64,000 nt of DNA from the NCBI RefSeq assembly GCF_006345805.1, contig NC_043014.1:3720001-3784000 (forward strand), given 5' to 3'. The DNA is from Octopus sinensis. Its lineage: Eukaryota. Each line of letters opens with the position of its first letter. Positions within the stretch are counted from its first letter, which is position 1. The notes below the pieces were generated by a model. That model was not told the DNA's origin and made no database searches. It saw only the letters and a list, made by a program, of their open reading frames with translations. This document shows, one piece after another, positions 550 through 40,573 of this stretch. Both the position numbers and the translations under genes were made by a program.

Positions 550-640
550 TATTTCATTCTACACGTGTTCGAAGGCACAATTTACCAAAATCCGATTGAA
601 TAATGAGACCATATTGTGTCTTTCTCATCAGGAAGAAATA
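550..640 (-). ncRNA. Mirror copy of the hammerhead, core damaged (GAAAC to GAAC)
   Basis: Reverse complement of 808-900, but missing one A of GAAA and one T of stem II. Confidence 0.65.
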
Positions 641-807
641 GGAAATCCGTTGGAAAAAACCAAAACAGAACAGAGGCGGAGCAAAACAAATCGAACTAGG
701 CTCCTAAGAGCCCATAGCAGAACAGTTTTGCCATGTGCTCTTAGGAGCCTAGTTCGATTTGTTTTGCTCCGCCTCTGTTCTGTTTTGGTTTTTTCCAACG
801 GATTTCC

Positions 808-900
808 TATTTCTTCCTGATGAGAAAGACACAATATGGTCTCGTTATTCAATCGGATTTTGGTAAATTGTGCCTTTCGAAACACGTGTAGAATGAAATA
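808..900 (+). ncRNA. Type I hammerhead ribozyme, intact core
   Basis: Stem I TATTTC-TTC/GAA-T-GAAATA; CTGATGA at 817-823; stem II GAAAGACACAAT/ATTGTGCCTTTC; GAAA at 879-882; palindromic stem III ACACGTGT; GTA triplet at 888-890. Confidence 0.85.
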
Positions 901-1706
901 AAACGATTTCTGTTCAATCTTCGTTCAGCTCCATTTCTTCAATTCACCAATAATATTTAAATACATATCAATATATAGGTATACACGTACACATAAGCAT
1001 ACACACCATAAATATCACAAATATACGTATCTACTTATACGCATAGACACACACAGACGCACACATATATGTGAGTGGACGTACACTGTATAGTGTGGTT
1101 GTTCGTGTACAATTGAGCACGTGTGTCTGTGTGCGTGCGTATGTGTGTGTGTTTGTGTTTATTTGTGCGTGTGTTTGTCCGTGTGTCTGTGTGTATGTAT
1201 TTACATTCGTTCTTACATATTGTCATATCTAAAAACCAACGTGAATTACAGTCAAACATTACGAAATTCACCGATCTACATTGGCACTCGCACGTTTTAT
1301 TTTCAGTTGGAAAGAAAAGATTAAAAAAAACTCGCCTCACTTCCGTTCCTGATGGAGAGAAATAGATAAATGTGTGTAAATATGTACGTATTCCTATGTG
1401 TGCGTGTGTGTGTGTTTGTATGTGTCTGTTTCTGTGCGTGTGTGTAAGTGTACATCTAGATATAATACTTAACACTAATATTAATAGGGCTAAACGTTGC
1501 AGCGACAGGGCATGGCCATGCTAGAACCCCACCATTAGATTTTTTTCATTACGCACTTATTTCTCTCTCCAGGATTATGTCTGGTGAAAGAGCGATCGGA
1601 CAGGAGTACGATTCCACCCTTCTTTGTGTTTACTTGGGATGTGTGTTTATGTATATATATATATAGATATATATATATATATATCCATACACACACACAC
1701 AGACAC

Positions 1707-1753
<47 letters not shown>

Positions 1754-1909
1754 TAGAGATAGATATGTAGATAAATAGATAGATAGATAGAACGATATAT
1801 AAATAGATAGATAGATATGTAGATAAATAGATTGATAGATAGATATGTATGTACATACATACGTAACTATATATGTGTGTATGTATATATGATATGTATA
1901 TATAATATA

Positions 1910-1942
<33 letters not shown>

Positions 1943-1943
1943 A

Positions 1944-1981
<38 letters not shown>

Positions 1982-2049
1982 ATTTATGTGTGTGTGTGTG
2001 TATAGCACACATAGCGTGTATGTATCTATGTTTTATGTATGTGTCTGTT

Positions 2050-2240
2050 ATTGTCGCACCGCTATCGATTCTCAACTGATGTCGGTGTGTTTACGTCCAC
2101 GTTAGATAGCGGTTCGTCTAGAGATACCGATAGAATAAGCAATAGGCTTACAAAGAATAATTCCTGAAGTCGATTTCTCCTACTGAACGCAGTATTCTAG
2201 CATGGCCGCAGTCAAATGACTGAAACGGGTAAAAGAATAT
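2050..2240 (+). mobile_element. OR-type octopus SINE, 3' part
   Basis: tgtttacgtcc...gatagaataag...gcatggccgcagtcaaatgactgaaac tail; repeated near 15680, 30880 and 47740. Confidence 0.65.
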
Positions 2241-2278
2241 ATTTATATACAAACAAACACGCACGCACGCACACACAC

Positions 2279-2332
<54 letters not shown>

Positions 2333-2747
2333 ACATATATATATATGGATAAATGGAGAGAGAGAGAGAGAGATAGACAGATTGATACAGTGATAGATAC
2401 ACACACGCATATATTTGTTTGTATATATATATCTATATATGTTCAGGCACTAATATATTCATATATATGTATATTATATATACAAATATACGTATATGTA
2501 TATATATGTATGTTTAGGTGTGTGCGCCTGTGTGTTCGTGTGTGATTACGTGTGTGATCTTATGTGTGTGTGTGTGCTTCATAGGAACATATGTACGTGA
2601 TTCATGCATACATCCTTACATCCATCCATCCATCCGTACGTACATACATCCACATATTAATACATACATACGTAAATGCATACATACATACATGCATATA
2701 TAAATACATAAAGACATAATTATATTAACACAAAATCCATGACTTAC

Positions 2748-2891
2748 CGTTTGCGATTTCTCTTCCATTTTTCCTATTCTTGAATCTTGATGAAGAATCA
2801 CGATCGTCAGAACGAGAAGAACCCCAAAAGCTATGAGAGAAGAAATGGAATAACGCTGCGAAATATTCCTGGACAGTTGTGCGAAATCCAT
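2748..2891 (-). CDS. Exon 1 of a short-chain collagen C4-like gene (copy 0; remaining exons presumably left of window)
   Basis: ATG ORF MDFAQLSRNISQRYSISSLIAFGVLLVLTIVILHQDSRIGKMEEKSQT with a hydrophobic stretch, ending at a phase-0 GTAAGT donor that fits the 52-nt exon 2 of other copies. Confidence 0.7.
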
Positions 2892-2975
2892 TCTGGTGAC
2901 AGTTGTCGGCCGTACGTGATACTTCGTGTGGCTTCAACAAAAGATCGAGATGCGAGGTTTAAGCTGAAGACCTGT

Positions 2976-3080
2976 AACTGAATTCCACGTATTTATTGAG
3001 CGCACGACAACCCAGCTCTGGCAGAGATCTTATCGTATATTTATGAACCAATGCGATTGGCGGAACTGTAAAAGTGGGCG
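2976..3080 (-). promoter_or_regulatory. Putative core promoter upstream of exon 1
   Basis: Inr-like TCAGTT (2976-2981), inverted CCAAT pair ccaatgcgattgg (3048-3060), GC-box-like gtgggcgtg; present upstream of each exon 1. Motif inference only. Confidence 0.3.
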
Positions 3081-3302
3081 TGAACTTGTCTGACAGGTTT
3101 AATTATTGGAAAGAGATGGTTTGATATTGTCACACAATAATTAGCAAAATATTTTGATGAATGAGAGACATGTGTAAAGTGAAATGATTCCTGTTTCTGG
3201 ATATATTATGATATATTTATTTACTAATGTTGTTATTTAATTTTATTTGTAATTATTGGGAAAATGCTTTAATATTCAGTGTGGGAAGTATTTCGTTCAA
3301 CC

Positions 3303-3720
3303 AACAAATACACAGACACAAAGACACACACACACATTCACACAAACTGACACACACACACACAAGCACACACTGACACAAACACCAACACACACACCCA
3401 CACACACTGACACACAGACATACACACGCACACACTGACATACACACACACCAACACCCACACCCACACACACCAACACACACTGACACACACACTGACA
3501 CAGACACACAGATACATTTTCTTACACACACACACACACACACACACTCACGCACACACATACACATTGACACACAAACACACTGACACACACACACACA
3601 CTGACACACACACACACACACGCTGACAGATACATGCACACACACTGACACACACACATACACTGACACACACACACACACACTGACACACACACACACT
3701 CCCACGCGCACACTTACACT

Positions 3721-3771
<51 letters not shown>

Positions 3772-3775
3772 ACTG
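3303..3775. repeat. (CA)n/CTGA(CA)n microsatellite
   Basis: Directly visible; flanked by a roughly 35 bp direct repeat. Confidence 0.9.
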
Positions 3776-3920
3776 TTTTAATATTCAGTGTGGGAAGTAT
3801 TTCGTTCAACCCACACAGTAATCGCAAGACTTAATCTAATGAAGTCCGCTGATCGGATTGGATTCTTCACAACAAGCGTTAATCGGATTAGAAAAGTTTT
3901 ATGTAAATATCAAAATCAAA

Positions 3921-4207
3921 ACCTTCCAATTCCCACCCACTCATACATACATATATACATACATACATATATACATACATACACACTTACATACACACAT
4001 ATATACATACATGCATACATACACACACACACATATATACATAGATACATGCACGCATACATACAAGCATACATACAAACATACATACATACATACACAC
4101 ATACATACATACATACATGAATACATATATACATACATACGTACTTACATCCATACATACATGCATACATACTTACATCTATCCATCCATACATACATAC
4201 ATACATA
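3921..4207. repeat. (TACA)n microsatellite
   Basis: Directly visible; the homologous tract in unit 2 is about 1.2 kb (17340-18515). Confidence 0.9.
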
Positions 4208-4762
4208 CTTGGTGGCTGCCCCCCTCGTTATCGAGTATGGGCATTGCACGAAGCTTAATCAATGTTGTTATCTTGCAATGCCTGTGCATGAAAATTTTTT
4301 TTATAGTGAGAAAAGGCTGTGCACTGTGTCAATCCCAGTCACTAAGCAACAGCAGCCATAATCCGAAAAGAAGAACAAATCAACATCATCGGTAACCACT
4401 GAGCCGCAGGTTTTATATCGGAGTCATCCCAGTTACCTGAGTTACCTTCTCCTAGAAGGATGCCCTAACAAAGTCTAGGAGTCCTTCACTCCCAATGGTT
4501 TAACCGCGCGATCGTGTATTCAGTCCGGTTACTTCTATTTCTCCGCACATGATACAGCCTTAAGACATGTATTGGATGGCCGTTGACTCTCAAGAGTGCC
4601 TCCGCTCTTTGACGGGTTTTGTTTTTCATCCCGCAGGGTGTCCAATAAACTCCCTCCTCACCAAGCAAGCTTAGTGTGGTTGCCGATTTGGTCGCCGACG
4701 ACCCGAAAATGCAACAGGTTGTCCTGTGTTACATGTTACCAGTAGCACACGAAAGTGACCTG
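4208..4762 (-). mobile_element. Interspersed repeat fragment, probably RTE-type LINE 5' region
   Basis: Block between (TACA)n tracts, repeated at 18515-19068, 33405-33827 and 35621-36167; the ccttctcctag...ccctaacaaag(g/t)ctaggagtcc motif resembles RTE 5'UTRs from memory. Confidence 0.4.
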
Positions 4763-5336
4763 ACATACATACATGCTTACATACATACATACATGCAGAC
4801 ATACATACATACATGCATACATACATGCATACATGCATGCATACATACATAGATTCATGCATACATTATACATACATACATACATGCATACATACCTACA
4901 TACATACATACAGACAAACATGCTTACATACATACATTCATACATACATACATACATACATACATACATACATACATACATACATACATACACACATACA
5001 TACAAAAATATCCTGTTCATGTTCTTGAAATTCCAATGAAAGATACTTGGAACTAAGTTAGAAGCCGTCTCTCTTTCTGTTGGCCAGAAATATTCTATTA
5101 AAACCGAATAATGACATTCATACATATTTTTAGCTAGTCATTATCACTAGCTTTGAATATGTTTCTTCTTGTTTTATAAATCATAGCAAAACATACAGGT
5201 ACAGTGTCTCCCATTTGAAACTCAATTCGCAAGTGCACCTTCCGTATGGACTGCATTTGTACGACGGAATTCCATACTTATGATAACATATTCTTAGATG
5301 AAGCATATTAGGCCCCTCAGATATAGTTTGACCAAA

Positions 5337-5423
<87 letters not shown>

Positions 5424-6977
5424 TATATATATGTGTGTATCTATGTGTGTAAGGTGTGTGTGTGTGTGTGTGTGTGTGTAACACTCTCAGTTTGGCCCTC
5501 GAAATAAGGTTAATTTGAAATAAGCTACAAAATAAATCTTATAGCCATGTCAGATTTCAACAAAGTCCATTAATTCTTCCTATTGTAATGGCGGGTTGCA
5601 TATGCAGCTGCGCATGCTCTGTACAGCTTAAACACATGGCGGTCGTTTTAACTGTCTAATTATGCCGCTGAATCAAAAGAAAAATTTGAAGATCTTCCAG
5701 CGTCCGTATTCTCTGCAATTGTTTACGATTTACAACCAGGAAAATATTTGTATTCTAGAGAAACGAATGCAGATTTACCCATCAGACTAATAATAGTGGG
5801 ATAGTAAACATTAATAATCTTTAATCTTTATTGCAGCTTGATGCTGTTAACCGAAACCTTCGTTTATCTAACAAATATTCGACACACTCCAACATACTGT
5901 CATGAATCCTATTGGATATAACGTGACGGTCACAACATCTCAGCCTTCTTACACACAGCATCCGTGCTTGCCCTGACTATATTTGCTCTCTTTACTCTCA
6001 CTTTTATGGGTGTTGTATTCGTTTCGCATGAAATGTATTCAGCTTCTAGGATCCATCCTTTCTGCGAGTCTGGTATGTTTACGTAGATGAGTGAAAGAAA
6101 TCGTCGTATTTGATGATCTCTGCTGCTGAAATGAGGCAATTTCTCTGGTTGATTTCATTTCTTATTCATGTATATCAGTGTTTTGTGTATGATGTGTATG
6201 TTGTGTTCTTCGAGTTTCATTTTGTATCTTATCTTGAAGAGAGGTGGGAATTTTGTGATATAGATTTAGGTTGGCAGGACCAATACTCATTTATACTGTC
6301 TTTTGAGGGATTGATCGTGTAAATTCCACATTCTCAGAAAGCTTAATTTGAACATTTTGTGATATTTCTAAAGTAGACGATAAATAGGTTTTATAGGATA
6401 TTGGGTAGGAATGGAACGGAAAGCTTTCCTGATTAATAACGGCAAATAGAATGGATTGTGTGGAAGTATCTGGTTGTTGTTGAAAGAATCAGTTAAGTTC
6501 TGTGCTAAGTAATGTAGCGGTTCATGGCTCCTTATCAGAATCCGAGTTGTAATTTGAAAACCAAGATGTCTGAGATAGTAGCGTCGAGTATTAGATTTTC
6601 TAAGGCTGTGCATGAAAAGCTGATATAATTCTATGGTGGTACTTTATTTGGGGTTTGTTGAATCATGAGACAGAAGACAAAATACTGTTAAACAAAATAA
6701 TATTTTATTTCAACGATAAGTTTGATAAACTGAAATCTTACAAAATGTTTTCTAAAATCATTTCGACAGATTTAGATTTTTCTTGATTTTGAGGATATTT
6801 CTGGCATTCTACGTCGCCTCTTTTGTATTGTTTGAATATCTTCTCTAAACTAGTATAACAGTTTATTGTAACGATAGACATACTTTAAAGAAAATATTAG
6901 GTAAAACAATTAAAATTTTATGTTATTTATTGAAATTCACAGACATATTTTCATATGGAACCGAATTTAATTTCTAT

Positions 6978-7477
6978 TCAATATTTACTGCACACAACGC
7001 AGGTTAATTCTTGACCATGGACATACGGTGGACATGGCAACGAACCACAAGCAGCCTCAACGAAATATAATAGAGCTCCATCTTCGTTTCTGTAACCCGC
7101 TGGATCAGCTTCTGGTGCATAATCCACACACACATATTCATATCTGCCTTTATGATTATAATGCTCGGTCATCAAATATCCCGAATACTCAGCTGTCCAA
7201 CCAGCGTAACACTGTGTCCTGGCTGGTAACGTCATAACAACAGCAGGTTGTCGTGTCAAACACACAGCGCACGGAACGTTGTGATCATGAAGTGACTTAG
7301 CGTTAGCAAAAGAAAAGAGTTTATTAGTTGGGTATAACTCTACTTGATATTCACTGCCATAAATCCAACCTTCATCTTCAACTTCTGTAGTATAATTGGC
7401 CCAAATGGGATCGTTGGGTAGACATAAGAGATTACTTCCGCCACCAGTATGGGAAAAATGTTGTCCACCAACGACAC
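6978..7477 (-). CDS. Exon 4 (last), short-chain collagen C4-like domain, gene copy 1
   Basis: Acceptor ttatag|GT; GGGSNLLCLP...IYGSEY...HDHNVPCAVC...C..GW..EY.GYLM...YVCVD..PE...LYFVEA.CGSLPCPPY....ELTCVVCSK then stop, the family signature. Confidence 0.9.
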
Positions 7478-7731
7478 CTATAATTGGTAAGAATAAATCA
7501 AGTAAACAGATATTAAGCAAAATTATATATGAAATAACGGAAACATTCATTCCAGTTTGACCCTTAAAAGAAGTCATGTTTAGTCACGTGTGAACGAATT
7601 GTGGTGTATATATGTTAGTGCTTATGTAAGTGTAAGCTGTGTGTTGCTGTATGGGAGTGCGCATGTGTTCGCAGCTCTGCCTTTCTCTCTCTGTTCATGT
7701 ATATATGTATATATATATACATATATATATA

Positions 7732-7950
7732 GTTAATCCAAGCATAAAAACACAAAGAGAAAACACAACATTGCGAGGACTTGGAACAAGTATAGGGTTA
7801 TTGGACGCCCATGAAGGAAGGAAAGAATGAGGGTTTATCTTTCCGAGCGGAGCTCTTCGTCAGAATAATAGGAAAAGGATGGATCCAAAGAAGGGAAAAC
7901 GGAGGGAAAAAAATCGCCAACGGTACTCAGGCGGTCACATTTTAAATGAA
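7732..7950 (-). mobile_element. Penelope LTR-like repeat with degenerate minimal hammerhead
   Basis: Minus strand CTGACGA-A-GAGC-TCC-GCTC-GGAAAGAT at about 7836-7863; related copies near 13057, 27975 and 45157. Confidence 0.5.
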
Positions 7951-7954
7951 TATG

Positions 7955-8010
<56 letters not shown>

Positions 8011-9406
8011 TGTGTGTTTACGGGTCAGTATTTGTGGTTGTGATGTGTATTGCATGGGATAGATGTTCGTGTGTGGATGTCAATAAACGGAGAAAGGAAA
8101 GGGATTTTGTGACGCATGTGGTCGTGATTTCCCGACATGGAAAAGATGTCGTTCACGTTTGAACGAGAAAATTGTTGGTGATGGGAATTGCATGTGGTTT
8201 GAGTAGAACAATACGAGAGACGGCGAGATGCAGAGAACTGGTGGGTAAGAGGGGATGAAATACTGTTTAGCCGACCATACGGGTGTGGCTGGCTATATCC
8301 ATCGGTTTGTCTCGGACGAGTCAGGCCTACCACGAGACGGGCCTACCACATACTATAATATTATGATCACAGAGATTTTATTTCATGCAAAGCATGAACT
8401 GAGGTGGGGTGAATTTTGAAGCTCATTGATGGCGTAGTGCTTAAGAAGAATGGACAGCAGAGTGGGCGACCGATAAAGGATATGTGTAGGGTTTATAGGG
8501 AGCAGATTCACAAAGGATGCCAGATTGGTTGGAGAAGATGTAGGAAGCAGTAGCTTTGAATTGGAAGTTCCGGCGTTTCCTTACAAAGATATACTGGATA
8601 ATTAATGAGGGGAGGTAACGCATGGAAACAAAAAGGTTTGAGGAATAGGACGATATCGGTAAGGCGAGAAGAATAGAAGTGCAATATGTACTCACTTGGG
8701 TTCTCTCAGTGGTACTTGGTCCCTCAATATTTTGCATAATACATACGGCCCTTAGTTAGCTTTGTCCATTAGTTACAGTGTGTGGTTTGTCCAGTCCACA
8801 TTGTACATTCTGCGTTCATTTCATTAACCATATACATTCATTCATCAGTTCTAAGAGACCTTGTTCAATTTAATTTATAACGACAATCAATAGACACTCT
8901 AGGTAATGATAGTCAAGTGGCCACTTTTCAGCTCTGGTCACTCACGTACAATACCACCAGCCGTACCCAGTACACTTGATCACCAGTTAGCAGCCTCGGT
9001 ATTTGATATCTACACTCCATACAAGTCAGCCAGGAGATCTTGTTCGCTATACTGGATTCCAGTCTAGTCCCTATCTATAATTTAACGTAGAGATATCTAT
9101 ATTCTGTGGTCAGACAACATCCTTTTCACCTGGTCCATAGTAGACAACATTTAAATTCTAATTTGACCAAATACTTACAAAGGAGTGAGCAGTCTTGTGC
9201 AGTCTCTATAGGGTCTATAGGTATCGTTACAAACGTGATATATCACATGATTTGCTTGAGTGTGCGTGCGTGCGTTTGCGTTCGTGCGCGTGCGTGAGAG
9301 AAACGGAAAGAGAGGGGGCGACACAAAGAGAAAATGAGAGGAATAAAAAGAGAAGAAGAGAAAGATAAAGAGAGAAAGAGAGGACAGAAATACAGAGTAT
9401 ACTAAC

Positions 9407-9481
9407 CGTCATATACAAGGTTTGAATAAGGAGGACAAGTAGTTCTGCCCCACCGAGTATACAATGATCCGGGACCGGGTT
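9407..9481 (-). CDS. Exon 3, gene copy 1
   Basis: tttcacag|75 nt|gttagt; encodes (K)PGPGSLYTRWGRTTCPPYSNLVYD(G), the YxRWGRTTCP start of the domain; phase 1/1. Confidence 0.9.
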
Positions 9482-21395: not shown

Positions 21396-21895
21396 TCAAT
21401 ATTTACTGCATACAACACAGGTTAATTCTTGACCATGGACATACGGTGGACATGGCAATGAACCACAAGCAGCCTGAACGAAATATAATACAGCTCCATT
21501 TTCGTTTCTGTAACCTGCTGGATCAGCTTCTGGTGCATAATCCACACACACATATTCATATCTGCCCTTATGTGTATGACGTTCGGACATCAAATATCCC
21601 GAATACTCAGCTGTCCAACCAGCGTAACACTGTGTTCTGGCTGGTAACATCATAAAAACAGCAGGTTGTCGTGTCAAACAGACAGCGCACGGAACGTTGT
21701 GATCATGAAGTGATTTAGCGTTAGCAAAAGAAAAGATGGTATTGGTGTCGTAATCCTGTAGTTGATATTCACTGCCATAAATGTGACCACCTTCTTCAAC
21801 TTTTGTAGTATAATTGGCCCAAATGGGGTCGTTAGGTAGACATAAGAGATTACTTCCGCCACCTGTGTGGTCGTACATTGTTCCACCAGCCACAC
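21396..21895 (-). CDS. Exon 4, short-chain collagen C4-like domain, gene copy 2
   Basis: Open 500-nt exon with ttctag acceptor and the same Cys framework as copy 1. Confidence 0.9.
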
Positions 21896-23359
21896 CTAGA
21901 ATTGGTAAGAATAAATCAAGTAAAAAAGATATTAAGCAAAATTATATATGAAATAACGGAAACATTCATTACAGTTTGACCCTTAAAAGAAGTCATGTTT
22001 AGTCACGTGTGAACGAATTGTGGTGTATGTTTTAGTGTTTATATGAGTGTATGCTGTGTTATATATTTGTGTGTCTTTGTGTTTGTGTGTGTGTGTGTTG
22101 GTGTGTGTTTACGTGTAAGTATTTGTGTGTGTGATGTGTATTGCTTGGGTAGATGTTTGTGTTGTGGGATGTCAATAAACGGAGGAAAGGAAAGGGATTT
22201 TGTTACGCATGTGGTCGTGATTTCCCGAAATGGAAAAGATGTCGTTCACGTTCGAACGGGAAAATTGTTGGTGACGGGAATTGCATGTGGTTTGAGTAGA
22301 ACAATACGAGAGACGGCGAGATGCAGAGAACTGGTGGGTAGGAGGGGATGAAATACTGTTTAGCCGAACATACGGGTGTGGCTAGCTATATCCATCGGTT
22401 TGTCTCGGACGAGTCAGGCCTACCACGAGACGGGCCTAACACATACTATAATTTTATGATCACAGAGATTTTATTTCATGCAAAGCATCAACTGAGGTGG
22501 AGTGAATTTTGAAGCTCATTGATGGCGTAGTGCTTAAGAAGAATGGACAGCGGAGAGGCGACCGATAAAGAATATGTGTAGGGTTTATAGAGAGCACATT
22601 CACAAAAGATGTGAGGTTGGTTGGAGAAGATGTGGGAAGCAGTAGCTTTGAATTGGATGTGCCGGTGTTACCTTACAAAGATACACTGGACAATTAATGA
22701 GGCGAGGTGTTGCATGAAAAGAGATCGGTTGAAGGGGTAGGACGATTTCGGTAAGGTGGAGAAGAATAGTAGTGCAATATGCACTCATTTGTGTTATCTT
22801 AGTGGTAATTCATCCCTCTACATTTTGCATAATACATAGGATCCTAAGTTAGCTTTGTCCATTAGTTACAGTGTGTGGTCTGTCCAGTCCACATTGTACA
22901 TTCTGCGTTCACTTCATTAACCATAAACATTCATTCATCAATTCTAAGAGACCTTGTTCAATGTAGTCTATAACTACAATCAATAGACTCTCTAGTTAAT
23001 GATAGTCAAGTGGCCACTTTCAGCTCTGGTCACTCACGTACAATACCACCATCCGTATCCAGTCTAGTCCCTATCTATAATTTAAGGTAGTTAGACAACA
23101 ACCTTTTCACCTGGTCCATAGTAGACAACATTTAAATTCTAATTTGACCAAATACCTACAAAGGAGTGAGCAGTCTTGTGCAGTCACTATAGGGTCTATA
23201 GGTATCGTTTCAAACGTGATATATCACATGATTTGCTTGAATGTGTGTGAGAGAAACTGAAAGAGAGGTGCCGACACGAAGAGAAAATGAGAGGAATAAA
23301 AAGAGAAGAAGAGAAAGATAAAGAGAGAAAGAGAGGACAGAAATACAGAGTATACTAAC

Positions 23360-27214: not shown

Positions 27215-27389
27215 AATATATACAGACACATATATATATATATATACACACACATATTTCTACGTTTATATATATATATATATATATATACATATATATA
27301 TAAATATAAGTGTAGCAAAAACTTCTAGAAAAAGTTCTCTGCTACCAGCGGTCTAGTGAGAAAAAAGATAGTCAAAGACTATATACTAT

Positions 27390-27850
27390 ACATTCAACAA
27401 TATAAGGAATGGCCATAATAGGACATTCGACTCACTAGAAAGAGCAGCCAAACTCAAACCGCAAATTAGTTGTAATTCTGAAATAGAAAGAGAAATAAAA
27501 CGTTTCCCCTTTCATCTCTGGACTATGCATAGTTTCTGCAAACTTTGTAAACAAATTAATTAAATTACATATATTTACATCTGGCGTGCCTCGTCAGCAG
27601 AGAAGCCTATGATGAGTATATGTCCACGAGGCGATGGTAAAGAAGCCTCCAGTCCATATGCTCTAAATTTTCAAAATTCTACCGCAATCGCGATGTCTTT
27701 CAGCAGCAAATACAAACTGCTGATTTAATTTCAAAATTAGCCAAAAAATCATTAATTAGTAAATATAAGGGTATTTAGCGGTTTGAGTTTTGCTGCTCTT
27801 TTTAGTAAGTCGAATGTCCTATTATGACCATTCCTTATATTGTTGAATAT
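27390..27850. mobile_element. Insertion with about 70 bp terminal inverted repeats in (TA)n, hammerhead-bearing
   Basis: attcaacaatataaggaatgg...caaaccgc (27392-27462) is inverted at about 27777-27849; unique to unit 2. Confidence 0.75.
27515..27603 (-). ncRNA. Type I hammerhead ribozyme with C11.1 to A change
   Basis: Minus strand TCTCTG-CTGACGA-GGCA...TGCA-GAAA-CTATGCATAG-TC-CAGAGA: 6-bp stem I, palindromic stem III, GTC triplet. Confidence 0.75.
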
Positions 27851-27887
27851 ATATATTATATATATTATATATATATATATATATATA

Positions 27888-30568: not shown

Positions 30569-30607
<39 letters not shown>

Positions 30608-30608
<1 letters not shown>

Positions 30609-30780: not shown

Positions 30781-30820
<40 letters not shown>

Positions 30821-31075: not shown

Positions 31076-31099
31076 TATTTTTAGACACCGCACACACAC

Positions 31100-31135
<36 letters not shown>

Positions 31136-31843
31136 ACACACCACACACACACATATATATGTTATAGAGAGGCCGAGAGAGAGAGATACACAGATAGTAA
31201 CATACACACACGCATATACATGTTTGTGCATATGTATATATATATATATAATATAATATATATAATATATATATATATAATCTATATATATATATATATG
31301 TATGTATATATATTATATATATACATACTTAATAAAGAGAGTTCAGCAAAGATTTGCTTTACCACATAGCGAAGTTTAGAAGTAGCAGCCAAAATCTTAG
31401 CTATTACTTCTACTTTAAAAAATGACTTCTAGAGAACCAAAAATAATATATAGAGAGAGAGATACACACACGCATATATGTTTTATATATTATATATATG
31501 TACACGTGCTAATAAATTCATTATATTGTATATTTATATATACATATATATGTATATTATATATATAATACACGAAAAGTATATATATGTATATACACAT
31601 ATGTATGTTTTAGTGTGTGCGCCTGTGTGTTCGTGTGTCTGTGATTATGTGTGATCTTATGTGGGTGTGTGTGCTCCATAGGACATATGTACGTGATTCA
31701 TGCATACATCCTTACATCCATCCATCCATCGTCTACGTACATACATCCACATATTAATCATACATACGTAAATGCATACATACATACATGATATATAAAT
31801 ACATAAAGACATAAAATATATTAACGCAAAATCCATGACTTAC

Positions 31844-31991
31844 CGTTTTCGATTTCTCTCCCTTTTTCCTATTCTTGAATCGTGATGAAGAATCACGATC
31901 GTCAGTCAGAACGAGAATGAAACCCCAAAAGCTATGAGAGAGAAATGGAATAACGCTGCGAAATATTCCTGGACAGTTGTGCGAAATCCAT
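31844..31991 (-). pseudogene. Exon 1 of gene copy 2, frameshifted as assembled
   Basis: Several small indels give an early TAG; the region is indel-rich, so these may be consensus errors. Confidence 0.55.
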
Positions 31992-33827
31992 TCTGGGACG
32001 TTGTCGGTCGTACGTGATACTTCGTGTGGCTTCAACAAAAGATCGAGATGCGAGGTTTAAGCTGAAGACCTGTAACTGAATTCCACGTATTTATTGAGCG
32101 CACAACAACCCAGCTCTGGCATAGATCTTATCGTAAATTTATGAACAATGCGATTGGTGGAACTGTAAAAGTGGGCGTGAACTTGTCTGACAGGTTTAAT
32201 TATTGGAAAGAGATGGTTTGATATTGTCACACAATAATTAGCAATATATTTGATGAATGAGAGACACGTGTAAAGTGAAATGATTCCTGTTTCTGGATAT
32301 TTATTATGAATTATTTATTTACTATGTTGTTTATTTAATTTTTATTTGTTATTCTTGGGAAACTGTTTTAATATTGAGTGTGGGAAGTATTTCGTTCAAC
32401 CGACAAATACACAGACACAAAGCACACACACACCACACACACACACTGACATACAGACACACAGACACACACACACGCACACACACTAATACACACACAA
32501 CACTGACATACACACACACCAACACACACACCCACAGACAACAACACACACTGACACACACACTGACACACACACACAGATACAATTTCTTACACACACA
32601 CACACACACACTCACGCACACACACACACACTGACACACCCACACACACACGTTATACCACCACACGCACACACCACACTAGCACACCACACACACACTG
32701 AAACACACACACAACACTCCCACACGCAAACATACACTCACACCACACAAACACACACAAACACACACACACACACCACACCACACACCACAAACACACA
32801 CACACACACACACTCTCACACACTGTTTAATATTCAGTGTGGGAAGTATTTCGTTCAACCCACACAGTAATCGCAAGACTAATTAATGAAGTCCGTTGTT
32901 CGGATTGGATTCTTCACAACAAGCGTTTAATCTGATTAGAAACGTTTTATGTGAATATCAAATCATCAACCTACCAATTCCCACCCACACCTACATTCAT
33001 ACATACATGCATACATACATATATACATACACACATACATACATACATATATACATGCATACATACCCCATACATACATAATAATTCTTACATACACCAC
33101 ACATATATACATACATACACACATACATGCACACATACATACATACAAACATACATACATACACACCCATAACATACATACATACATACATACATACTTT
33201 CATACATACATACATGTATGCATATATTTATACATACAAGTATGTATGTATACATGTATACATGCATGTATGTTTGAATGTAAGCATGTATATATCGATA
33301 GACACATATACACATACATACATATATACTACATACATACATACATCCATACATACTACATGCATACATACTTACATCAATCCTCCATCCATCCATACAT
33401 ACCTACTTGGTGGCTGCACCCTCGTTATCGAGTATGGGCATTGCACGAGCTTAAATCAATGTTATTATCTTGCATGGCTGTGCATGAAGATTTTTTTTTA
33501 TAGCAGAAAGGCTGTGCACTGTGTTAATCCCAGTCACTAAGCAACAGCAGCCATATTCCGAAAGAAGAAAAAGTCAACATCATCGGTAACCACTGAGCCG
33601 CAGGTTTTATATCGGAGTTATCCCGTTACCTTAGTAACTTCTCCAAAAGGATGCACCTAGCAAAGTCTAGGAGTCCTTCACTCCAACGGTTTAACGCGCG
33701 CGATCGGGTATTCAGTCCGATTATTTCTATGTCCCCGCGCATGATACAGCCTTAAGACATATATTGGATGGCCGTTGACTCTCAAGAGTTCCTCCGCTCT
33801 TTGACGGGTTTTGTTTTTCATCCGCAG

Positions 33828-33927
33828 NNNNNNNNNNNNNNNNNNNNNNNNNNNNNNNNNNNNNNNNNNNNNNNNNNNNNNNNNNNNNNNNNNNNNNNNN
33901 NNNNNNNNNNNNNNNNNNNNNNNNNNN
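33828..33927. other. Assembly gap (100 N)
   Basis: Run of N. Confidence 1.
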
Positions 33928-34889
33928 ACACCCACACACACCCACATACTGACAAACACAACACAACACCACACCCACACACACCACACACACGACACAC
34001 ACACTGACACACACACACAGATACTGTCTTACACACACACACACTCACGCACAGACATACACATGACACACACCACACTGAACACACACACCACACGCTG
34101 ACACACACACGCACATACACACTGACACACACACATACACTTACACACACACCCACATACATGACACGCATATATAACACACACACACACACTCCCACAC
34201 CACACCATACACTGACACACACACCACACACTCACACACACACACACACACTCACACACTGTTTTAATATCCAGAGTGGGAAGTATTTCGTTCAACCCCA
34301 CACAGTAATCGCAAGACTTAATCTAATGAAGTCCGCTGTTCGGATTGGATTCTCCACAACAAGCGTTAATCGGATTAGAAAAGTTTTATGGGAATATCAA
34401 AATCAAAAACCTACCAATCCCACCCACCCATACATACATTACATATATACATACATACATACATGCATACATACATACTACAGACATACATACATTACAT
34501 ACATACATACATACATACATGCACGCATACATTCAAACGTACATACATACACCCATACATATATACATGCATACATACATACACACATACATACATACAT
34601 ACATGCATAACATACTCACTCAACGTATATACATACATCATATACATTATGTATACTACATACAATTAATATCACCCTTCATTGTTACTCATAAACCATA
34701 TTCATCTCAGCAAATGACCACAGCACTTGTCTTGGCTACACGCGGGTGGGAAGGGACTGTTGACACAAGCTTTCATTCATACTTTGAATTTGGTGATACT
34801 AGTGTGGCTTCTAGCTCGCTCTAATATGAGTTGAGTTGGTGCCTTCTATTATCTCAAAATCAATATTCAATCATTCATGATTGTTGTAT

Positions 34890-34980
34890 CCTGCGCTGAT
34901 GAGAGAAGAAGTCTGGGTAAGTAGAATTATCTAATTCTTATACTTTCCTAAGACTTGATCTCGAAACGTACGTCCGTATG
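34890..34980 (+). ncRNA. Type I hammerhead ribozyme, intact core
   Basis: CCTGCG-CTGATGA (34896-34902)-GAGA...long hairpin AAGTCT/AGACTT...TCTC-GAAA-CGTACG-TC-CGTATG; palindromic stem III ACGTACGT; GTC at 34972-34974. Confidence 0.8.
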
Positions 34981-35274
34981 TGACTTAAAAATGTACGATA
35001 GATTGCCTAATCACTTCTTTTTACCTGTTTGTGTTTGCCTTTCAAATGCTGTGTCTTACTGTGATCTCCTTTTTAGTAGAAGAAATAGCTATAATCTCTT
35101 TGACTGCTATTTCTAAATTCGGTGTGCGGTAAGCAATTCGTTGCTAAACCCTTAATTGCTTAGTATTACTTAAATTTCCTCGAATGAGGCTTTTACATGC
35201 CGAAGACTACTTGGTGTAATTGATAATTATTACACAATTAATTAATTTCACCCTTCATTGTCACATAGATATAT

Positions 35275-35311
<37 letters not shown>

Positions 35312-37430
35312 CACACATACACACATACATACACCAACATACATACATACATACACAAACTACATACATACATACACACTTACATACATACATCTTTCAT
35401 ATTCATACATACATACAACATGTATGCATATATTTATACATACATGTACGTATGTATACATGTATACATAAATGTATTTTTGGAATGTAAGCAAATATAT
35501 ATCGATAGACACATATACACATATATACATATATACATACATACATACATAATTACATCCATACATACATGCCATACCTACTTACATCCATCCATCCATC
35601 CATAGATACATACATACATACTTGGTGGCTGCCCCCTCGTTATCGAGTATGGCATTGCACGAAGCTTAATCAATGTTGTTATCTTGCAATGCCTGTGCAT
35701 GAAGATTTTTTTTATACTGAGTAAAGGCTGTGCACTGTGTCAATCCCAGTCACTAAGCAACAGCAGCCATAATCCGAATCGAACTATAAGTCAACCTCAT
35801 CGGTAACCACTGAGCCGCAGGATTTATATCGGAGTTATCCGGTTACCTGAGTTACCTTCTCCTAGAAGGATGCCTAACAAGTCTAGGAGTCTTCACTCCC
35901 ATTGGTTTAACGCGCGATCGGGTATTCAGTCGATTATTTCTATTTCGCCGCGCATGATACGGCCTTAAGACATATATGGATGGCCGTTCATTCTCAAGAG
36001 TTCCTCCGCTCTTTGACGGGTTTTGTTTTTCATCCCGCAGGGGTGTCAATAAACTCCCTCTCACCAAGCAAGCTTGGTGGGTTGCCGGCTTAGTCGCCGA
36101 CGACCCGACAATGCAACAGGTTGTACTGGGTTACTGTTTACCAGTAGCACGAACGAAAGGACCTGACATTACATACATGCATACATACATACATATATAC
36201 ATACATACATACATACATACATGCATACATACATACATGCATACATACATACATATATACATACATACATACATACAAGCATACATACATACATGCATTC
36301 ATACATACATATATACATACATACATACATACATGCATACATACATACATACATGCATGCATACATGCATACATACATACATACATACATACATACATAC
36401 ATACATGCATAAATACATACGTACATACATACATACATACATACATACATGCATGCATACATACATACATGCATTCATACATACATATATACATACATAC
36501 ATACATACATACATGCAATACATACATACATACATGCATGCATACATGCATAATACATACATACATACATACATACATACATACATACATACATGCATAC
36601 ATACATACATATTAACATATTAACGTACATACATGCATACATACATACATACATACATACATGCATACATACATACATGCATACATTCATGCATGCATAC
36701 ATACATACATACATGCATACATACATACATACATACATACAACATACATACATACATACATACATGCATACATACATACATACATGCATACATACATATA
36801 TACATACATGCATACATACATGCATACATACATACATGCATACATACATACATACATACATAAATACATACATACATACATAAATACATACATACATACA
36901 TACAAACGTACATACATGCATACATACATACATACATACATGCATACATACATACATACATATATACATACATACATACATACATGCATACATACATACA
37001 AAAATATCCTGTTCATGTTGTTGAAATTCCAATGAAAGATACTTGGAACTAAGTTAGAAGCCGTCTCTCTTTCTGTTGGCCAGAAATATTCTATTAAAAC
37101 CGAATAATGACATTCATACATATTTTAGCTAGTCATTATCACTAGCTTTGAATATGTTTCTTCTTGTTCTATAAATCATATCAAAACATACAGGTACAGT
37201 GTCTCCCATTTGAAACTCAATTCGCAAGTGCACCTTCCGTATGGACTGCATTTGTACGTCGGAATTCCATAGTTATGATTAAATTTCTTAGATGAAGCAT
37301 ATTAGACCCCTCAAATATAGTTTGACCTAATTTAATAAATATGTGTGTGTGGTGTGTGTGTTTGTGTGTATGTGTTGTGGGTGTTTGTGGTGCTTGCGTG
37401 CGTGTGTGGTTGGGTGTGTGTGTGTGTGTG

Positions 37431-37477
<47 letters not shown>

Positions 37478-38967
37478 TGTGTGTAACACTCTCGGTTTGG
37501 CCCTCGAAATAAGGTGAATTTGAAATAAGCTACAAAATAAATCTTACAGCCATGTCAGATTTCAACAAAGTCCCATAATTTTTCCTATTGTAATGGCGGG
37601 TTGCATATGCAGCTGCGCATGCTCTGTACAGCTTAAAACACCTGGCGGTCGTTTTAACTGTCTAATTATGCCGCTGAATCAAAAGATGATTTTGAAGATC
37701 TACCAGCGTCCGTATTCTCTGCAAATGTTTACGATTTACAACAAGGAAAATATTTGTAATCTAGAGAAGCGAATGAGATTTACCCATTAGACTAATAATG
37801 GTGGATAGTAAACATTAATAATCTTTAATCTTTATTGCAGCTTGATGCTGTAAACCGAACCTTCGTTTATCTAACAAATATTCGACACACTCCAACATTA
37901 CAGTCATGAATCCTATTGGATATAACGTGACGGTCACAACATCTCAGCCTTCTTACACACAGCATCCTGGTTGCCCTGAGATATTTGCTCTCTTTACTCG
38001 CGCTTTATGGGTGTTGTAGTCGTTTTACATGAAATGTCTTCAGCTTCTAGGATTCATCCTTTCTTCGAGTCTGGTATGTGTACGTAGCGGAGTGAAAGAA
38101 ATCGTCGTATTTGATGTTCTTGCTGTCGAAATGAGGCAATTTTTCTGGTTGATTTCATTTCTTATTCTTGTATATCAGCGCTTAGTATATGACGTGTATG
38201 TTGTGGCATCGAGTTTCATTTTGTATCTTATTTTGAAGAGAGGTGGGAATTTCGTGATATAGATTTAGGTGGCAGGACCAATACTCATATATACTGTCTT
38301 TTGAGGGATTGATCGTGTAAATTCCACATTCTCAGAAAGCTTAAATTGAAACATTTTGTGATATTTCTAAAGTAGACGATAATAGGTTTTTAAGTAGTGG
38401 GGTAGGAAAGGAACAGAAAGCTTTCCTGATTAATAATGGCAAATAGAATGGTTTGTGAAGACGTATCTTGTTGTGTGAAAAGATCAGTTAAGTTCTGTGC
38501 TAAGTAATGTAGCGTTCATGGGTCTTTGTCAGAATCCGAGTTGTAATTTGAAAACCAAGATGTCTGAGATAGGTAGCGTCGTGTATTAGAAATCTAAGGC
38601 TGTGCCATGAAAAGCTGATATAATTTATGGTGGTACTACTTGTTGGGGTTTTGTTGAATCATGAGACAGAAGACAAATACTGTTATTAAACAAAATAACA
38701 TTTTATTTCAACGATATTAGTTGATAAACTGAAATCTACAAAATGTTTTCTAGAATCATTTCGACAGATTTAGATTTTTCTTGTTTTTGAGGATATTTCT
38801 GGCATTCTAGGTCGCCTCATTTGTATGTTTGAATATCTTCTGTAAACTAGTACAACAGTTTATTGTAACGATAGACATACTTTTAAAGAAAATATTAGGT
38901 AACACAATTAAATTGTGTTATTTATGAAATTCATAGACATTTCGTATGGAACGAATTTAATTTCTAT

Positions 38968-39465
38968 TCAATATTTACTACACACAACGCAGGTAATCTT
39001 GACCATTGACATACTGTGGACATGGCAATGAACCACAAGCAGCCTGAACGAAATATAAAACAGCTCCATCTTCGTTTCTGTAACCTGCTGGATCAGCTTC
39101 TGGTGCATAATCCACACAAACATATTCAAGTCTGCCCTTACTATTACAATGCGCGGTCATCAAATATCCCGAATACTCAGCTGTCCAGCCAGCGTAACAC
39201 CAGCTGTCCTCGCTGGTAACATCATAACGACAGCAGGTTGTCGTGTCAAACAGACAGCGCACGGAACGTTGTGATCATGAATTGATTCAGCGTTAGCAAA
39301 AGAAAAGAGTTTATTAGTTGGGTATAACTGTAGTTGATATTCACTGCCATAAATCCAACCTCCATCTTCACCTTCTGTAGTATAATTGGCCCAAATGGGA
39401 TCGTTGGGTAGACATAAGAGATTACTTCCGCCCCCAGTATGGGAAGATGTTGTCACCAACGACAC
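38968..39465 (-). pseudogene. Exon 4 of gene copy 3, frameshifted as assembled
   Basis: Domain split over ORFs 39160-39465 and 38978-39262, with several 1-2 bp indels. Confidence 0.75.
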
Positions 39466-39720
39466 CTAGAATTGGTAAGAATAAATCAAGTAAAAAAGAT
39501 GTAAGAAAAATTATATATGAAATAACGGAAAAATTCATTACTGTTAAAAGAAGACATGTTTAGCCACGTGTGAACGAATTTTGTGTGTATATATGTAGTG
39601 TTTATGTGAGTGCAAGCGGTGTGTTGAGGTATGCTTGAGATCATAGCTGTGCATTTGCATTCTCTTCATATATATATATATATATGTAATCGAAGTAAGC
39701 AACAAGGATATCCAGAGAAA

Positions 39721-39804
39721 TGCAGTGCAATTGTTTCATGCAACTCCATTAAATTGAACAATACAATCATCATCAATTTAAAAATAGAGGAATCTTCAGC
39801 TGCA
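39721..39804 (-). ncRNA. Type I hammerhead, degenerate (U16.1 to C)
   Basis: Minus strand TGCAG-CTGAAGA-T...GCAT-GAAA-CAATTG-CA-CTGCA. Confidence 0.55.
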
Positions 39805-40492
39805 CACAATACATAGGATTTAATTAAAATTAAACAGATTGACACATTAGTATAATTATACCTAAAATTTCCAAGAAGTTAAGGAGATACACAAAGAACA
39901 TGTTGTCTCTACTTCAGCGTAGAAGTTAATAAAATTATCAGAAATTATGAATACTATGAATACAAAATGTATTCAACCACTCCTATCCTTTTGTTATATT
40001 TATTCTTCTTAATATTCCTTTGGAAAACCCTAAACTCCAACTGTATCATAGCAACATTGTTTAAAATATTTAACTATAATATATGATAAGACCTTCCGTT
40101 TCATTGTCAAAGTCTGCAGTGTGCGACCCCCTTAATTATCAGCTAACATCTTGTTTTAAGATTTCCCTTACTAAACCTCATGGTATGCTTATAATGATTC
40201 TTGATTTTTTTATAATTATACCAATAGAATGTCTATCTACTCCCTCAGCCCTCCCCCTAACAGATACTGCCTATGTTCTCTCAGCCTTAGATATACAAAG
40301 GATTTTTAAACAAATTAAAACTGACCCCATAAAGATAAATAATCAGTGGTAAGCTGAGTCTTCTTCATAATTTAGTAGTAACTGCTATGCTGAAATAGAA
40401 ACAGCATGTTCTATGTAAAATCTTGGAGATTTTAAGTATAATTATACAAATGTGTCCATCTGTTGTACACTAATTAAATTCTACGTCTTTGT

Positions 40493-40573
40493 GCAGCTGA
40501 AGATTGCTCTAAATTTGAACTGATGTAATGATTACATTATTGAATAAATAGGTGCATGAAACGAACGTACTGC
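40493..40573 (+). ncRNA. Type I hammerhead variant (U-U at 10.1/11.1)
   Basis: GCAG-CTGAAGA-TTGC...GCAT-GAAA-CGAACG-TA-CTGC; GTA triplet at 40567-40569. Confidence 0.65.

What the first reader, a model, noticed from the sequence alone, without database searches (positions are those of the whole stretch)
550..40573. Several unrelated type I hammerhead ribozymes with long stem II and palindromic stem III in microsatellite-embedded insertions
Four different unit-specific insertions each fold into a type I hammerhead: 808-900 (+), 27515-27603 (-), 34890-34980 (+) and 40493-40573 (+, with a mirror at 39721-39804). Outside the core the sequences are unrelated, but the architecture is shared: a long stem II hairpin and a mostly self-complementary stem III (ACACGTGT, ACTATGCATAGT, ACGTACGT, CAATTG). 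Established: Penelope-like elements and retrozymes carry type I hammerheads whose palindromic stem III allows dimeric cleavage. Inference: these are several cephalopod non-autonomous Penelope/retrozyme-like families that favour TA-rich microsatellites.
Basis: partly seen in the sequence, partly recalled or inferred. Interest (0 to 1): 0.8.

Follow-up and report, generated by a model that had tools for sequence, protein, structure and literature searches.

The report
Long-arm hammerheads of Hydra-clade retrotransposons
The four ribozyme-like motifs are real repeats, present in hundreds to thousands of copies: two are the tail ends of Penelope-like jumping genes, and two sit in short non-coding tandem units that likely borrow those genes' enzymes; all have an unusually long middle hairpin and are predicted to cut RNA in pairs.

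Summary
In detail: four type I hammerhead folds lie at the stated places (4 hits against 0.14 in shuffles). Each belongs to a dispersed family (3,824, 195, 235 and 705 exact core matches) whose 3' ends abut (TA)n.

The interpretation needs correcting. HH1 (817-890) and HH4 (40497-40569) are not non-autonomous families. They are 5'-truncated, inverted 3' ends of RT + GIY-YIG Penelope-like elements of the Hydra clade, and their RTs group together. HH1's family still has intact ~900-aa ORFs; HH4's is decayed. HH2 and HH3 lie in ~470-bp and ~585-bp ORF-less tandem units, retrozyme-like, with no partner found.

Stem II (54-60 nt, against about 11-25 in published Hydra hammerheads) shows compensatory changes. 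Stem III stays palindromic through six different sequences, which favours dimeric cleavage (untested). HH1's lineage has lost the CxCX5C linker yet still inserts at (TA)n. Most window copies are probably inactive fossils. Verdict: a new variant of a known kind.

The parts
197..341 (.). (TA)n target tract of the F1 insertion
   Evidence: TRF AT x74; empty sites in paralogous units show (TA)/(CA) tracts
342..958 (.). F1 insertion: 5'-truncated inverted repeat (axis about 724/725) of the 3' end of an autonomous Hydra-clade Penelope-like element. The left arm (-) carries a ~150-bp tail that the right arm (+) lacks.
   Evidence: 489-962 palindrome, 96%; matches both ends of L031; the tail is 5' UTR, ending about 47 nt before the ATG in L135
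809..899 (+). HH1 type I hammerhead: core 817-823, stem II 824-878, stem III ACACGTGT 882-889, predicted cleavage after A890
   Evidence: 3,824 exact 20-mer matches
548..640 (-). Mirror of HH1 with two single-base homopolymer losses (core GAAA to GAA); mutation or assembly error
27300..27850 (-). F2 insertion: one ~470-bp non-coding unit plus an 82-bp inverted 3' piece (27772-27853), (TA)n on both sides
   Evidence: spacing 468-470 bp at four tandem pairs
27515..27603 (-). HH2: stem III ACTATGCATAGT, predicted cleavage after C27521; this copy has G-A in place of the family's G10.1-C11.1 pair
   Evidence: 195 exact matches
34664..35266 (+). F3 insertion: one ~585-bp non-coding monomer plus a short terminal redundancy; forms head-to-tail arrays elsewhere in the genome
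34892..34978 (+). HH3: 60-nt stem II, stem III ACGTACGT, predicted cleavage after C34974
   Evidence: 235 exact matches
39686..40685 (.). F4 insertion: truncated inverted 3' end of an older, decayed Hydra-clade element (short arm on - about 39686-39940, long arm on + about 39965-40685)
   Evidence: colinear EN-UTR-hammerhead in L199, L200 and L202, with RT upstream in L200
40493..40573 (+). HH4: U-U at the base of stem II (family-wide), stem III ACGAACGT (family ACGATCGT), predicted cleavage after A40569
   Evidence: 705 exact family matches
39721..39804 (-). Mirror of HH4, decayed (stem III ACAATTGC, U16.1 changed to C)

Best explanation
HH1 and HH4 are hammerhead motifs in the 3' repeats of two Hydra-clade Penelope-like retrotransposons, and HH2 and HH3 lie in short ORF-less tandem units that are likely mobilised in trans by such elements; all four are predicted to self-cleave mainly as dimers through their palindromic stem III.

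Shown here: family membership, ORF linkage for F1 and F4, tandem and inverted layout, (TA)n flanks, two fixed 3' ends per family lying past the predicted cleavage site, and covariation.

Inferred cycle: a more-than-unit transcript is bound by the RT-EN protein. The GIY-YIG domain nicks a (TA)n tract. RT starts inside the RNA at one of two sites downstream of the hammerhead (F1 +66-70 or +217 nt; F2 +143 or about +228; F3 about +195 or +297; F4 about +38 or +125-157) and copies back across an intact hammerhead. A second start at the other site gives the inverted arm with or without the tail. The template must be continuous across the cleavage site, so it is either uncleaved or re-ligated. Neighbouring hammerheads in tandem transcripts would pair their stem III palindromes and cut out unit-length RNA. 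For F2 and F3 this monomer likely circularises and is copied round the circle into arrays.

The window copies are probably inactive: HH1 and HH4 face their own mirror images, and HH2 and HH4 carry core-adjacent mutations.
For: F1: L031 holds RT + GIY-YIG coding pieces between the two inverted ends. 10 of 150 scored hits lie in open frames of 896 aa or more. 4 of 9 fetched (L133-L136) run from Met to stop, and L135 and L136 have a hammerhead on each side of the ORF, unit about 3.65 kb. Motifs RIRW, SDKT, CxxCxxE...N...CxH match the Hydra description (PMC8557442 section 11).

F4: EN to UTR to hammerhead is colinear in 3 of 12 extended loci; L200 adds RT at 41% identity to F1. The CxCX5C linker is present, and the U-U closure matches many published Hydra hammerheads (supplement S2).

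RT tree: F1 + F4 + F6 form a group at 100/100.

F2 and F3: no RT/EN-like hit belonging to the unit in 60 loci. F3 arrays hold five or more units; divergence within arrays is 1.0% (41 pairs) against 3.1% between arrays (623 pairs).

Covariation in 17 F1-lineage hammerheads: 91% of cells paired; 10 pairs with both-side change, 7 of them in the basal 12 bp of stem II; 1 of 500 shuffles as high; slid controls 32-46% paired. RNAalifold recovers stem II independently.

Stem III is a perfect palindrome in six different sequences (ACACGTGT, ACATATGT, ACGATCGT, ACAGCTGT, ACGTACGT, ACTATGCATAGT) plus a wobble form, ACATGTGT. For the window families' 8-mers a monomer hairpin costs +2.4 kcal/mol and the self-duplex gives about -10. 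Co-folding two F3 copies forms the intermolecular stem III (-43.8 against 2 x -17.6).

Two RT start sites explain tails in an anole PLE (PMC11167929, passages).
Against: No cleavage, RNA end or circle was observed. The single-molecule MFE forms stem II but not the full hammerhead fold; HH1's stem II is no more stable than shuffles (z -0.84) and its whole-motif z is +0.98. In the co-fold MFE stem I is not formed. Rfam scores are far below threshold. In the anole element, hammerhead cleavage was dispensable in vitro and no reads ended at the site; metazoan PLE hammerheads cleaved weakly even as dimers (PMC4209133).

No autonomous partner sharing DNA with F2 or F3 was found among the loci fetched, so the Hydra link for them rests on architecture only. 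Array homogeneity also fits duplication after insertion. The pattern constrained the centre of stem III, so the 100% pairing of that helix is partly built in; related sequences inflate covariation scores. The EN tree supports the long-stem group only at 80/85; the F4 RT is a long branch; both roots are midpoints. Pfam gave no RT or GIY-YIG hit, so the domain calls rest on motifs and homologues.
Confidence: 0.75

Rival explanations
1. Same elements, but the hammerhead rarely cuts. Uncleaved read-through RNA is the template, and the long stem II is kept as a protein-binding or RT-positioning structure. F3 arrays come from multimeric source transcripts or later unequal crossover, not from circles.
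For: 97 of the 101 mapped 3' ends in the main clusters and outliers lie past the cleavage site by 32 nt or more, only one lies before it, and the cores are intact. Catalytic mutants did not affect insertion in vitro (PMC11167929). Stem I is only 3-6 bp and F4 closes stem II with U-U.
Against: The core CUGANGA/GAAA and H17 (A or C) are invariant across 17 diverged F1-lineage rows (the core was required by the pattern). They are also kept across separate families found by looser scans. Palindromy of stem III is kept through different sequences, which is best explained by selection for pairing between two ribozymes.
Confidence: 0.25
2. All four are independent non-autonomous retrozyme families.
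For: No DNA similarity outside the core; the window copies are short and non-coding; F2 and F3 do fit.
Against: F1 and F4 are contiguous with RT/EN coding sequence elsewhere in the genome. F1 inverted arms lie at variable spacings, from under 100 bp to over 4 kb, as expected of 5' truncation.
Confidence: 0.05
3. F2 and F3 are satellite or MITE-like repeats, or 3' ends of autonomous elements whose long copies were not sampled.
For: Own-genome searches score only the best 40 candidates and favour full monomers. F2 has an 82-bp terminal inverted repeat in the window.
Against: The inverted piece varies in length between copies and always starts from a 3' end; units repeat at a fixed period; two discrete 3' ends and (TA)n flanks match the PLE signature. 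No listed F2 inverted pair is wider than about 560 bp (first 100 of 195 places).
Confidence: 0.12
4. The motifs are chance matches in AT-rich, microsatellite-rich DNA.
For: Rfam scores are below threshold; folding z-scores are modest.
Against: Shuffle control; copy numbers with 0 control matches; covariation; fixed position downstream of PLE ORFs.
Confidence: 0.01

Closest known systems
Hydra clade of Penelope-like elements (Craig et al. 2021, PMC8557442; includes Hydra-1_Obim from Octopus bimaculoides)
   Same: Single ORF with RT then C-terminal GIY-YIG; RW and DKT motifs; CxxC-E-N-CxH in the endonuclease; hammerhead near the 3' end; (TA)n targets; partial tandems, inverted 5' copies and tails. 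F4's U-U stem II closure matches many listed Hydra hammerheads.
   Different: Stem II is 54-60 nt (up to 86 in F6) against about 11-25 nt in the 26 Hydra-clade rows of supplement S2. Stem III is an even perfect palindrome, whereas most listed ones have 3-4 bp plus a 1-3 nt loop. The F1 unit is about 3.65 kb with a ~900-aa ORF, against 'generally <3 kb'. The F1 lineage has RWL for RWK and no CxCX5C. F4 has a 3' UTR of about 3 kb. Tails are about 85-150 bp against 30-40 bp.
Non-LTR retrozymes of animals (Cervera and de la Pena 2020, PMC7229834; Li et al., bioRxiv 10.64898/2026.07.22.740005)
   Same: F2 and F3: ORF-less, low-GC tandem units with one type I hammerhead each; monomers to multimers, dispersed; proposed to be derived from or dependent on PLEs.
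   Different: Monomers are about 470 and 585 bp against about 170-450. They show PLE-type inversions, two 3' ends and (TA)n targeting, and a long stem II. Circular RNA and cleavage are not shown here.
Minimal and palindromic-helix-III hammerheads of metazoan PLEs (Cervera and de la Pena 2014, PMC4209133)
   Same: Short helix I, enlarged helix II, palindromic helix III proposed to act as a dimer.
   Different: Their helix II is 6-8 bp; here the basal helix is about 12 bp with a second helix beyond an internal loop.
PLE-X1_sMoe and PLE-X1_sTam hammerheads of Selaginella (PMC8557442 supplement S2)
   Same: A stem II region of about 50 nt, marked as deviating from the canonical structure: a precedent for a long arm in a PLE.
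   Different: EN-minus plant elements that target 28S rDNA; no 8-nt palindromic stem III.

Membership tests
Type I hammerhead ribozyme | Core CUGANGA ... GAAA ... UH with three helices, helix I open | tested here: met
   for all four; the two mirrors fail (GAA; U16.1 changed to C)
Type I hammerhead ribozyme | R10.1-Y11.1 closing pair of stem II | tested here: inconclusive
   G-C in HH1 and HH3 and in 16 of 16 dispersed F2 copies; G-A in the window's HH2; U-U throughout F4, as in many published Hydra hammerheads
Type I hammerhead ribozyme | Rfam RF00163 gathering score 34 | tested here: not met
   13.7 and 16.1 bits for HH1 and HH3, none for HH2 and HH4; the model expects a stem II interior of about 10 nt
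Type I hammerhead ribozyme | Compensatory changes in helices | tested here: met
   F1 lineage; not tested within F2, F3 or F4, whose sampled copies differ mostly by decay
Type I hammerhead ribozyme | Self-cleavage 3' of H17 | not testable with these tools
   needs in vitro transcription
Penelope-like element, EN+ (F1, F4) | RT followed by GIY-YIG endonuclease in one ORF | tested here: met
   intact in L133-L136; broken but colinear in L200; identified by motifs and 17 homologues, not by Pfam
Penelope-like element, EN+ (F1, F4) | Pseudo-LTR partial tandem, inverted 5' copy, tail | tested here: met
Hydra clade | RWK and DKT motifs | tested here: met
   RIRWL and SDKT in 6 of 6 F1 ORFs printed; K replaced by L; ADKT in L200
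Hydra clade | No CCHH; CxxC and CxH around the conserved E and N | tested here: met
   CNLCVSE ... N ... CPHW
Hydra clade | CxCX5C linker | tested here: not met
   F1: absent in 6 of 6 ORFs printed, 0-1 Cys in a 159-168-aa linker, and absent in F5. F4, F6, F9: present. F1 is therefore filed as a derived lineage that groups with CxCX5C-bearing relatives, not as a typical member.
Hydra clade | Insertion into (TA)n | tested here: met
   F1 21 of 24, F4 17 of 27, background 4.9%
Hydra clade | Monophyly with published Hydra RTs against other PLE clades | not tested
   published Hydra and other-clade sequences were not in the tree; only visual motif agreement with the supplement alignment
Non-LTR retrozyme (F2, F3) | Tandem units each with a type I hammerhead, no ORF | tested here: met
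Non-LTR retrozyme (F2, F3) | Expression as linear and circular monomer RNA | not testable with these tools
   no raw RNA reads were available
Non-LTR retrozyme (F2, F3) | Homology to the pseudo-LTR of an autonomous PLE | tested here: inconclusive
   none among the Hydra-like families fetched; sampling covers a small part of 15,484 EN candidates
Naiad clade | N-terminal endonuclease, no canonical hammerhead | tested here: not met
   EN is C-terminal and a hammerhead is present; definition

The most novel reading that the evidence does not exclude
This genome holds a radiation of Hydra-clade retrotransposons with a distinct hammerhead subtype: a 54-86-nt, two-helix stem II and an even palindromic stem III, obligately dimeric and missed by the Rfam model. 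The long arm would be the handle recognised by the element's RT, kept or copied by the two parasitic retrozymes. The youngest, most abundant branch has lost the linker zinc finger thought to aim these elements at (TA)n yet still targets (TA)n, which would show that the finger is dispensable for targeting.
Probability: 0.3. Interest if true: 0.65.

Novelty: new variant of a known kind. Interest (0 to 1): 0.42.

Why it matters
Hammerheads in Penelope-like elements and retrozymes are known, and so is a Hydra element in an octopus, so the class is not a surprise. Three things add value.

(1) A young family with intact ORFs and about 3,800 hammerhead copies, beside candidate non-autonomous passengers, gives material to test two open questions: whether PLE hammerheads cut in vivo, and whether PLE RT mobilises retrozymes.

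(2) The F1 lineage is a natural test of the idea that the linker zinc finger directs microsatellite targeting (hypothesis in PMC8557442 sections 11 and 15).

(3) The long stem II falls below the Rfam threshold, so thousands of such motifs may be uncounted in repeat-rich animal genomes.

Tried and rejected
Rfam on the whole window: the 150 rows shown of 403 were below-threshold matches, nearly all microRNA models on microsatellites or on the F1 palindrome (MIR847). Rejected.

Pfam on F1 ORF pieces, two full ORFs and two homologues: nothing significant.

My first guess from memory, the Naiad clade: rejected after reading PMC8557442 (EN is N-terminal there).

Expression: no RNA holder listed for F3. 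Contigs of four runs only guessed to be RNA were laid on 34600-35300; they cover parts of the unit but cannot show strand, ends, level or circles. Not used as evidence.

Search for an autonomous partner of F2 or F3 among the fetched loci: none. The one F2-like hit beside another family (L247:4924-5028, 75%) is a separate fragment between microsatellites.

Two further core-like matches in the window (50646 on -, 60857 on +) lack stem I and were rejected. The repeated CTGACGA match at 2810, 16431, 31905 and 48527 (-) has only 2 bp of stem II and was rejected.

The strict descriptor found no hammerhead within 1.5 kb of 30 EN hits; a looser pattern and longer flanks found them in five of those families. 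None was found for two families (L240, L241).

The first TA test used a faulty offset and was redone. Earlier scan findings: none returned.

Literature searches listed no paper on long-stem-II hammerheads of Hydra elements or on cephalopod retrozymes. The library lacks most subscription papers and Repbase reports, and the bioRxiv preprint's supplements were not seen.
Full report
OBSERVATION. A descriptor scan of both strands recovered four cores with three helices, against a mean of 0.14 and a maximum of 2 in 100 shuffles that keep dinucleotides in 500-base blocks. The segment between CUGANGA and GAAA is 55, 54, 60 and 54 nt. The predicted cleavage sites after 890, 34974 and 40569 are correct, and HH2's is C27521 on the minus strand. 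Rfam's type I model sees HH1 and HH3 only weakly (13.7 and 16.1 bits against 34) and misses HH2 and HH4.

SETTING. The window is a run of ~13-kb duplicated units at 80-92% identity. Each insertion is missing from the other units in the window. F4 (24 of 29 near loci) and F2 (10 of 29) were nevertheless copied along with the host unit elsewhere; F3 (1 of 29) and F1 (0 of 29) were mostly not. Exact 20-21-mers spanning core and stem III occur 3,824 (F1), 195 (F2), 235 (F3) and 705 (F4) times, with 0 for reversed controls. These count motifs, not insertions. No call names the host organism.

HH1 (F1). The top hits are 97-98% identical. An inverted pair 4.7 kb apart encloses RT and GIY-YIG coding sequence. 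A protein search found 150 scored matches, 10 in open frames of 896 aa or more. Of 9 fetched, L133-L136 run from Met to stop (about 895-905 aa), and L135 and L136 have the hammerhead both 263-266 nt upstream of the ATG and about 3.65 kb further on. The proteins carry RIRW, SDKT, YRDD (YPDD in L134) and CxxCxxE-N-CxH, and align with 10 of the 17 database homologues that I gave to the aligner at 30-35% identity. These are the Hydra-clade features of Craig et al. 2021 (PMC8557442; passages, sections 11 and 15, and part 2 of the supplement read). One feature fails: the CxCX5C linker, present in nearly all aligned homologues, is replaced by a 159-168-aa low-complexity linker with 0-1 Cys (6 ORFs printed; the script stopped at the seventh). 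The window copy, 342-958, is a 235-bp inverted repeat of the 3' end with a ~150-bp tail on one arm.

HH4 (F4). Dispersed copies are 85-90% alike and mostly carry ACGATCGT or a CpG-type decay of it. 29 of 31 keep the core but only 9 of 31 the exact palindrome. Walking upstream reached a GIY-YIG domain with CxCX5C. EN, about 3 kb of internally repeated UTR and the hammerhead are colinear in L199, L200 and L202 (3 of 12 extended loci; the rest are interrupted or run beyond the fetch). L200 also holds a broken RT, 41% identical to F1, and an inverted hammerhead at its 5' end. Its U-U closure of stem II matches many Hydra hammerheads in supplement S2.

HH2 AND HH3 (F2, F3). In 30 loci each, the homology is confined to a ~470-bp or ~585-bp unit that repeats head to tail, often with an inverted 5' part. 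tblastn with F1 ORF pieces found one hit (L077), outside the array. F3 units within 13 arrays differ by 1.0%, against 3.1% between arrays. No fetched Hydra-like family shares DNA with either unit, but only a small part of 15,484 EN candidates was seen. They fit non-LTR retrozymes as defined in PMC7229834 (passages) and the 2026 preprint (first fifth and passages), apart from their size and PLE-type ends.

TARGETS AND ENDS. A (TA)4+ run begins within 12 nt of the 3' end in 21 of 24 (F1), 14 of 19 (F2), 30 of 31 (F3) and 17 of 27 (F4) distinct ends, against 4.9% of 19,600 random flank positions. Paralogs of the window's own insertion were largely left out by using dispersed loci. Each family has two 3' ends past the cleavage site (F1 +66-70 and +217; F2 +143 and about +228; F3 +186-204 and +297; F4 +32-44 and +108-157). 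The longer values are capped by the reference, but (TA)n follows them. In an anole PLE such paired ends are two internal RT start sites, and hammerhead cleavage was dispensable in vitro (PMC11167929, passages).

STRUCTURE. I aligned the window's HH1 with 16 of 23 distinct hammerheads from diverged relatives. Left out were 3 mirror copies, 3 from other families and 1 one-base-shorter copy; 5 of 28 loci gave no match. The hand-drawn structure has 91% of cells paired and 10 pairs with both-side change, 7 of them in the basal 12 bp of stem II. 1 of 500 shuffles reached that, and slid controls pair 32-46%. RNAalifold finds the same stem II. Relatedness inflates such scores, and the retrieval pattern constrained stem III. 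Independent of that pattern, looser scans found stem III as ACACGTGT, ACATATGT, ACGATCGT, ACAGCTGT, ACGTACGT and ACTATGCATAGT, all perfect palindromes, and ACATGTGT, which needs G-U pairs. As monomer hairpins the 8-mers cost +2.4 kcal/mol; as self-duplexes they give -6 to -10, and the 12-mer -16. Two F3 copies co-fold through stem III, though without stem I. This is the dimer logic of PMC4209133 (parts 1-2 of 4 and passages read), where activity was low. Against: monomer MFEs do not give the full fold, and HH1's stem II is not unusually stable.

RELATEDNESS. Further Hydra-like families in the genome have stem II segments of 55 (F5), 85-86 (F6), 57 (F8) and 55 nt (F9); one (F7) has 10 nt. On an RT tree of 21 rows, F1, F4 and F6 group at 100/100, apart from F7 and the database homologues (midpoint root, F4 a long branch, no outside clade; the partial F6b row lacked the anchor motif and dropped out). 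An EN tree puts all long-stem families on one side at only 80/85. So HH1 and HH4 likely share the long arm by descent, although their DNA no longer aligns.

COMPARISON. Published Hydra hammerheads have stem II segments of about 11-25 nt; two Selaginella PLE-X hammerheads in the same table have long arms, so a long arm is not without precedent. Hydra-1_Obim shows the clade is known from an octopus, with a short-armed hammerhead. A 2026 octopus repeat annotation lists 31 recently active Penelope-like families but does not mention ribozymes or Hydra in its main text (PMC13282606, passages; supplements not read). Seven searches listed no description of these families; Repbase or Dfam entries could exist.

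VERDICT. Real, and largely explained by known biology: two truncated Hydra-clade PLE ends and two retrozyme-like passengers. The variant features are the long covarying stem II, the even palindromes, long tails, and loss of the linker cysteines in a young (TA)n-targeting lineage. Interest 0.42; new variant of a known kind.

Noticed in passing
window 6978-7583, 21396-21941, 51189-51734 (all -): The ~13-kb duplicated unit carries a Cys-rich coding exon of about 180 aa ending in CVVCSKY. No Pfam hit. Atlas look-alikes at 0.96-0.97 are unnamed clusters, two of the best three mostly molluscan; one further cluster has 11% PF01413 C4. Related units recur over about 3.65-5.8 Mb of contig C18: a large tandem gene family.
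   Followed up: partly
window 61679-63428 (+): LINE-like element: ORF1 with a CCHC zinc knuckle, then an exonuclease/endonuclease/phosphatase domain.
   Followed up: partly
L248, L249 (G000 C4:78513000-78522500; C26:1191500-1200500): Another Hydra-like family (F6): L248 holds a 960-aa open frame; CxCX5C, hammerheads about 5.6 kb apart on both sides of the ORF, 85-nt stem II and stem III ACAGCTGT.
   Followed up: partly
L250 (G000 C2:97793000-97802000): Hydra-like family (F7) with a 766-aa frame and a minimal hammerhead (10-nt stem II, ACTCAGAGT): short- and long-armed types coexist in one genome.
   Followed up: partly
L119:2057-3355, L122:1856-3349 (-): A further F1-related element (F5), also without CxCX5C, inserted just downstream of the F4 copy in some paralogous units.
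   Followed up: partly
L170:4830-7180: The F4 3' UTR is about 2.4-3 kb and built from diverged internal repeats of about 800 bp (about 70% identity).
   Followed up: no
L170:7871-8332 (+): A GIY-YIG-like frame with upstream cysteines, unlike the Hydra type; resembles a Naiad endonuclease (resemblance recalled, not tested).
   Followed up: no
window about 33830-33927: A run of N (assembly gap) about 750 bp upstream of the F3 insertion. Single-base homopolymer losses in the HH1 mirror and frameshifts in L031 may likewise be assembly errors.
   Followed up: no
G000 C18:3718862-3719434, just upstream of the window (L130): The neighbouring unit carries the same F2 insertion (98% identical), about 900 bp from the F1 insertion.
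   Followed up: yes
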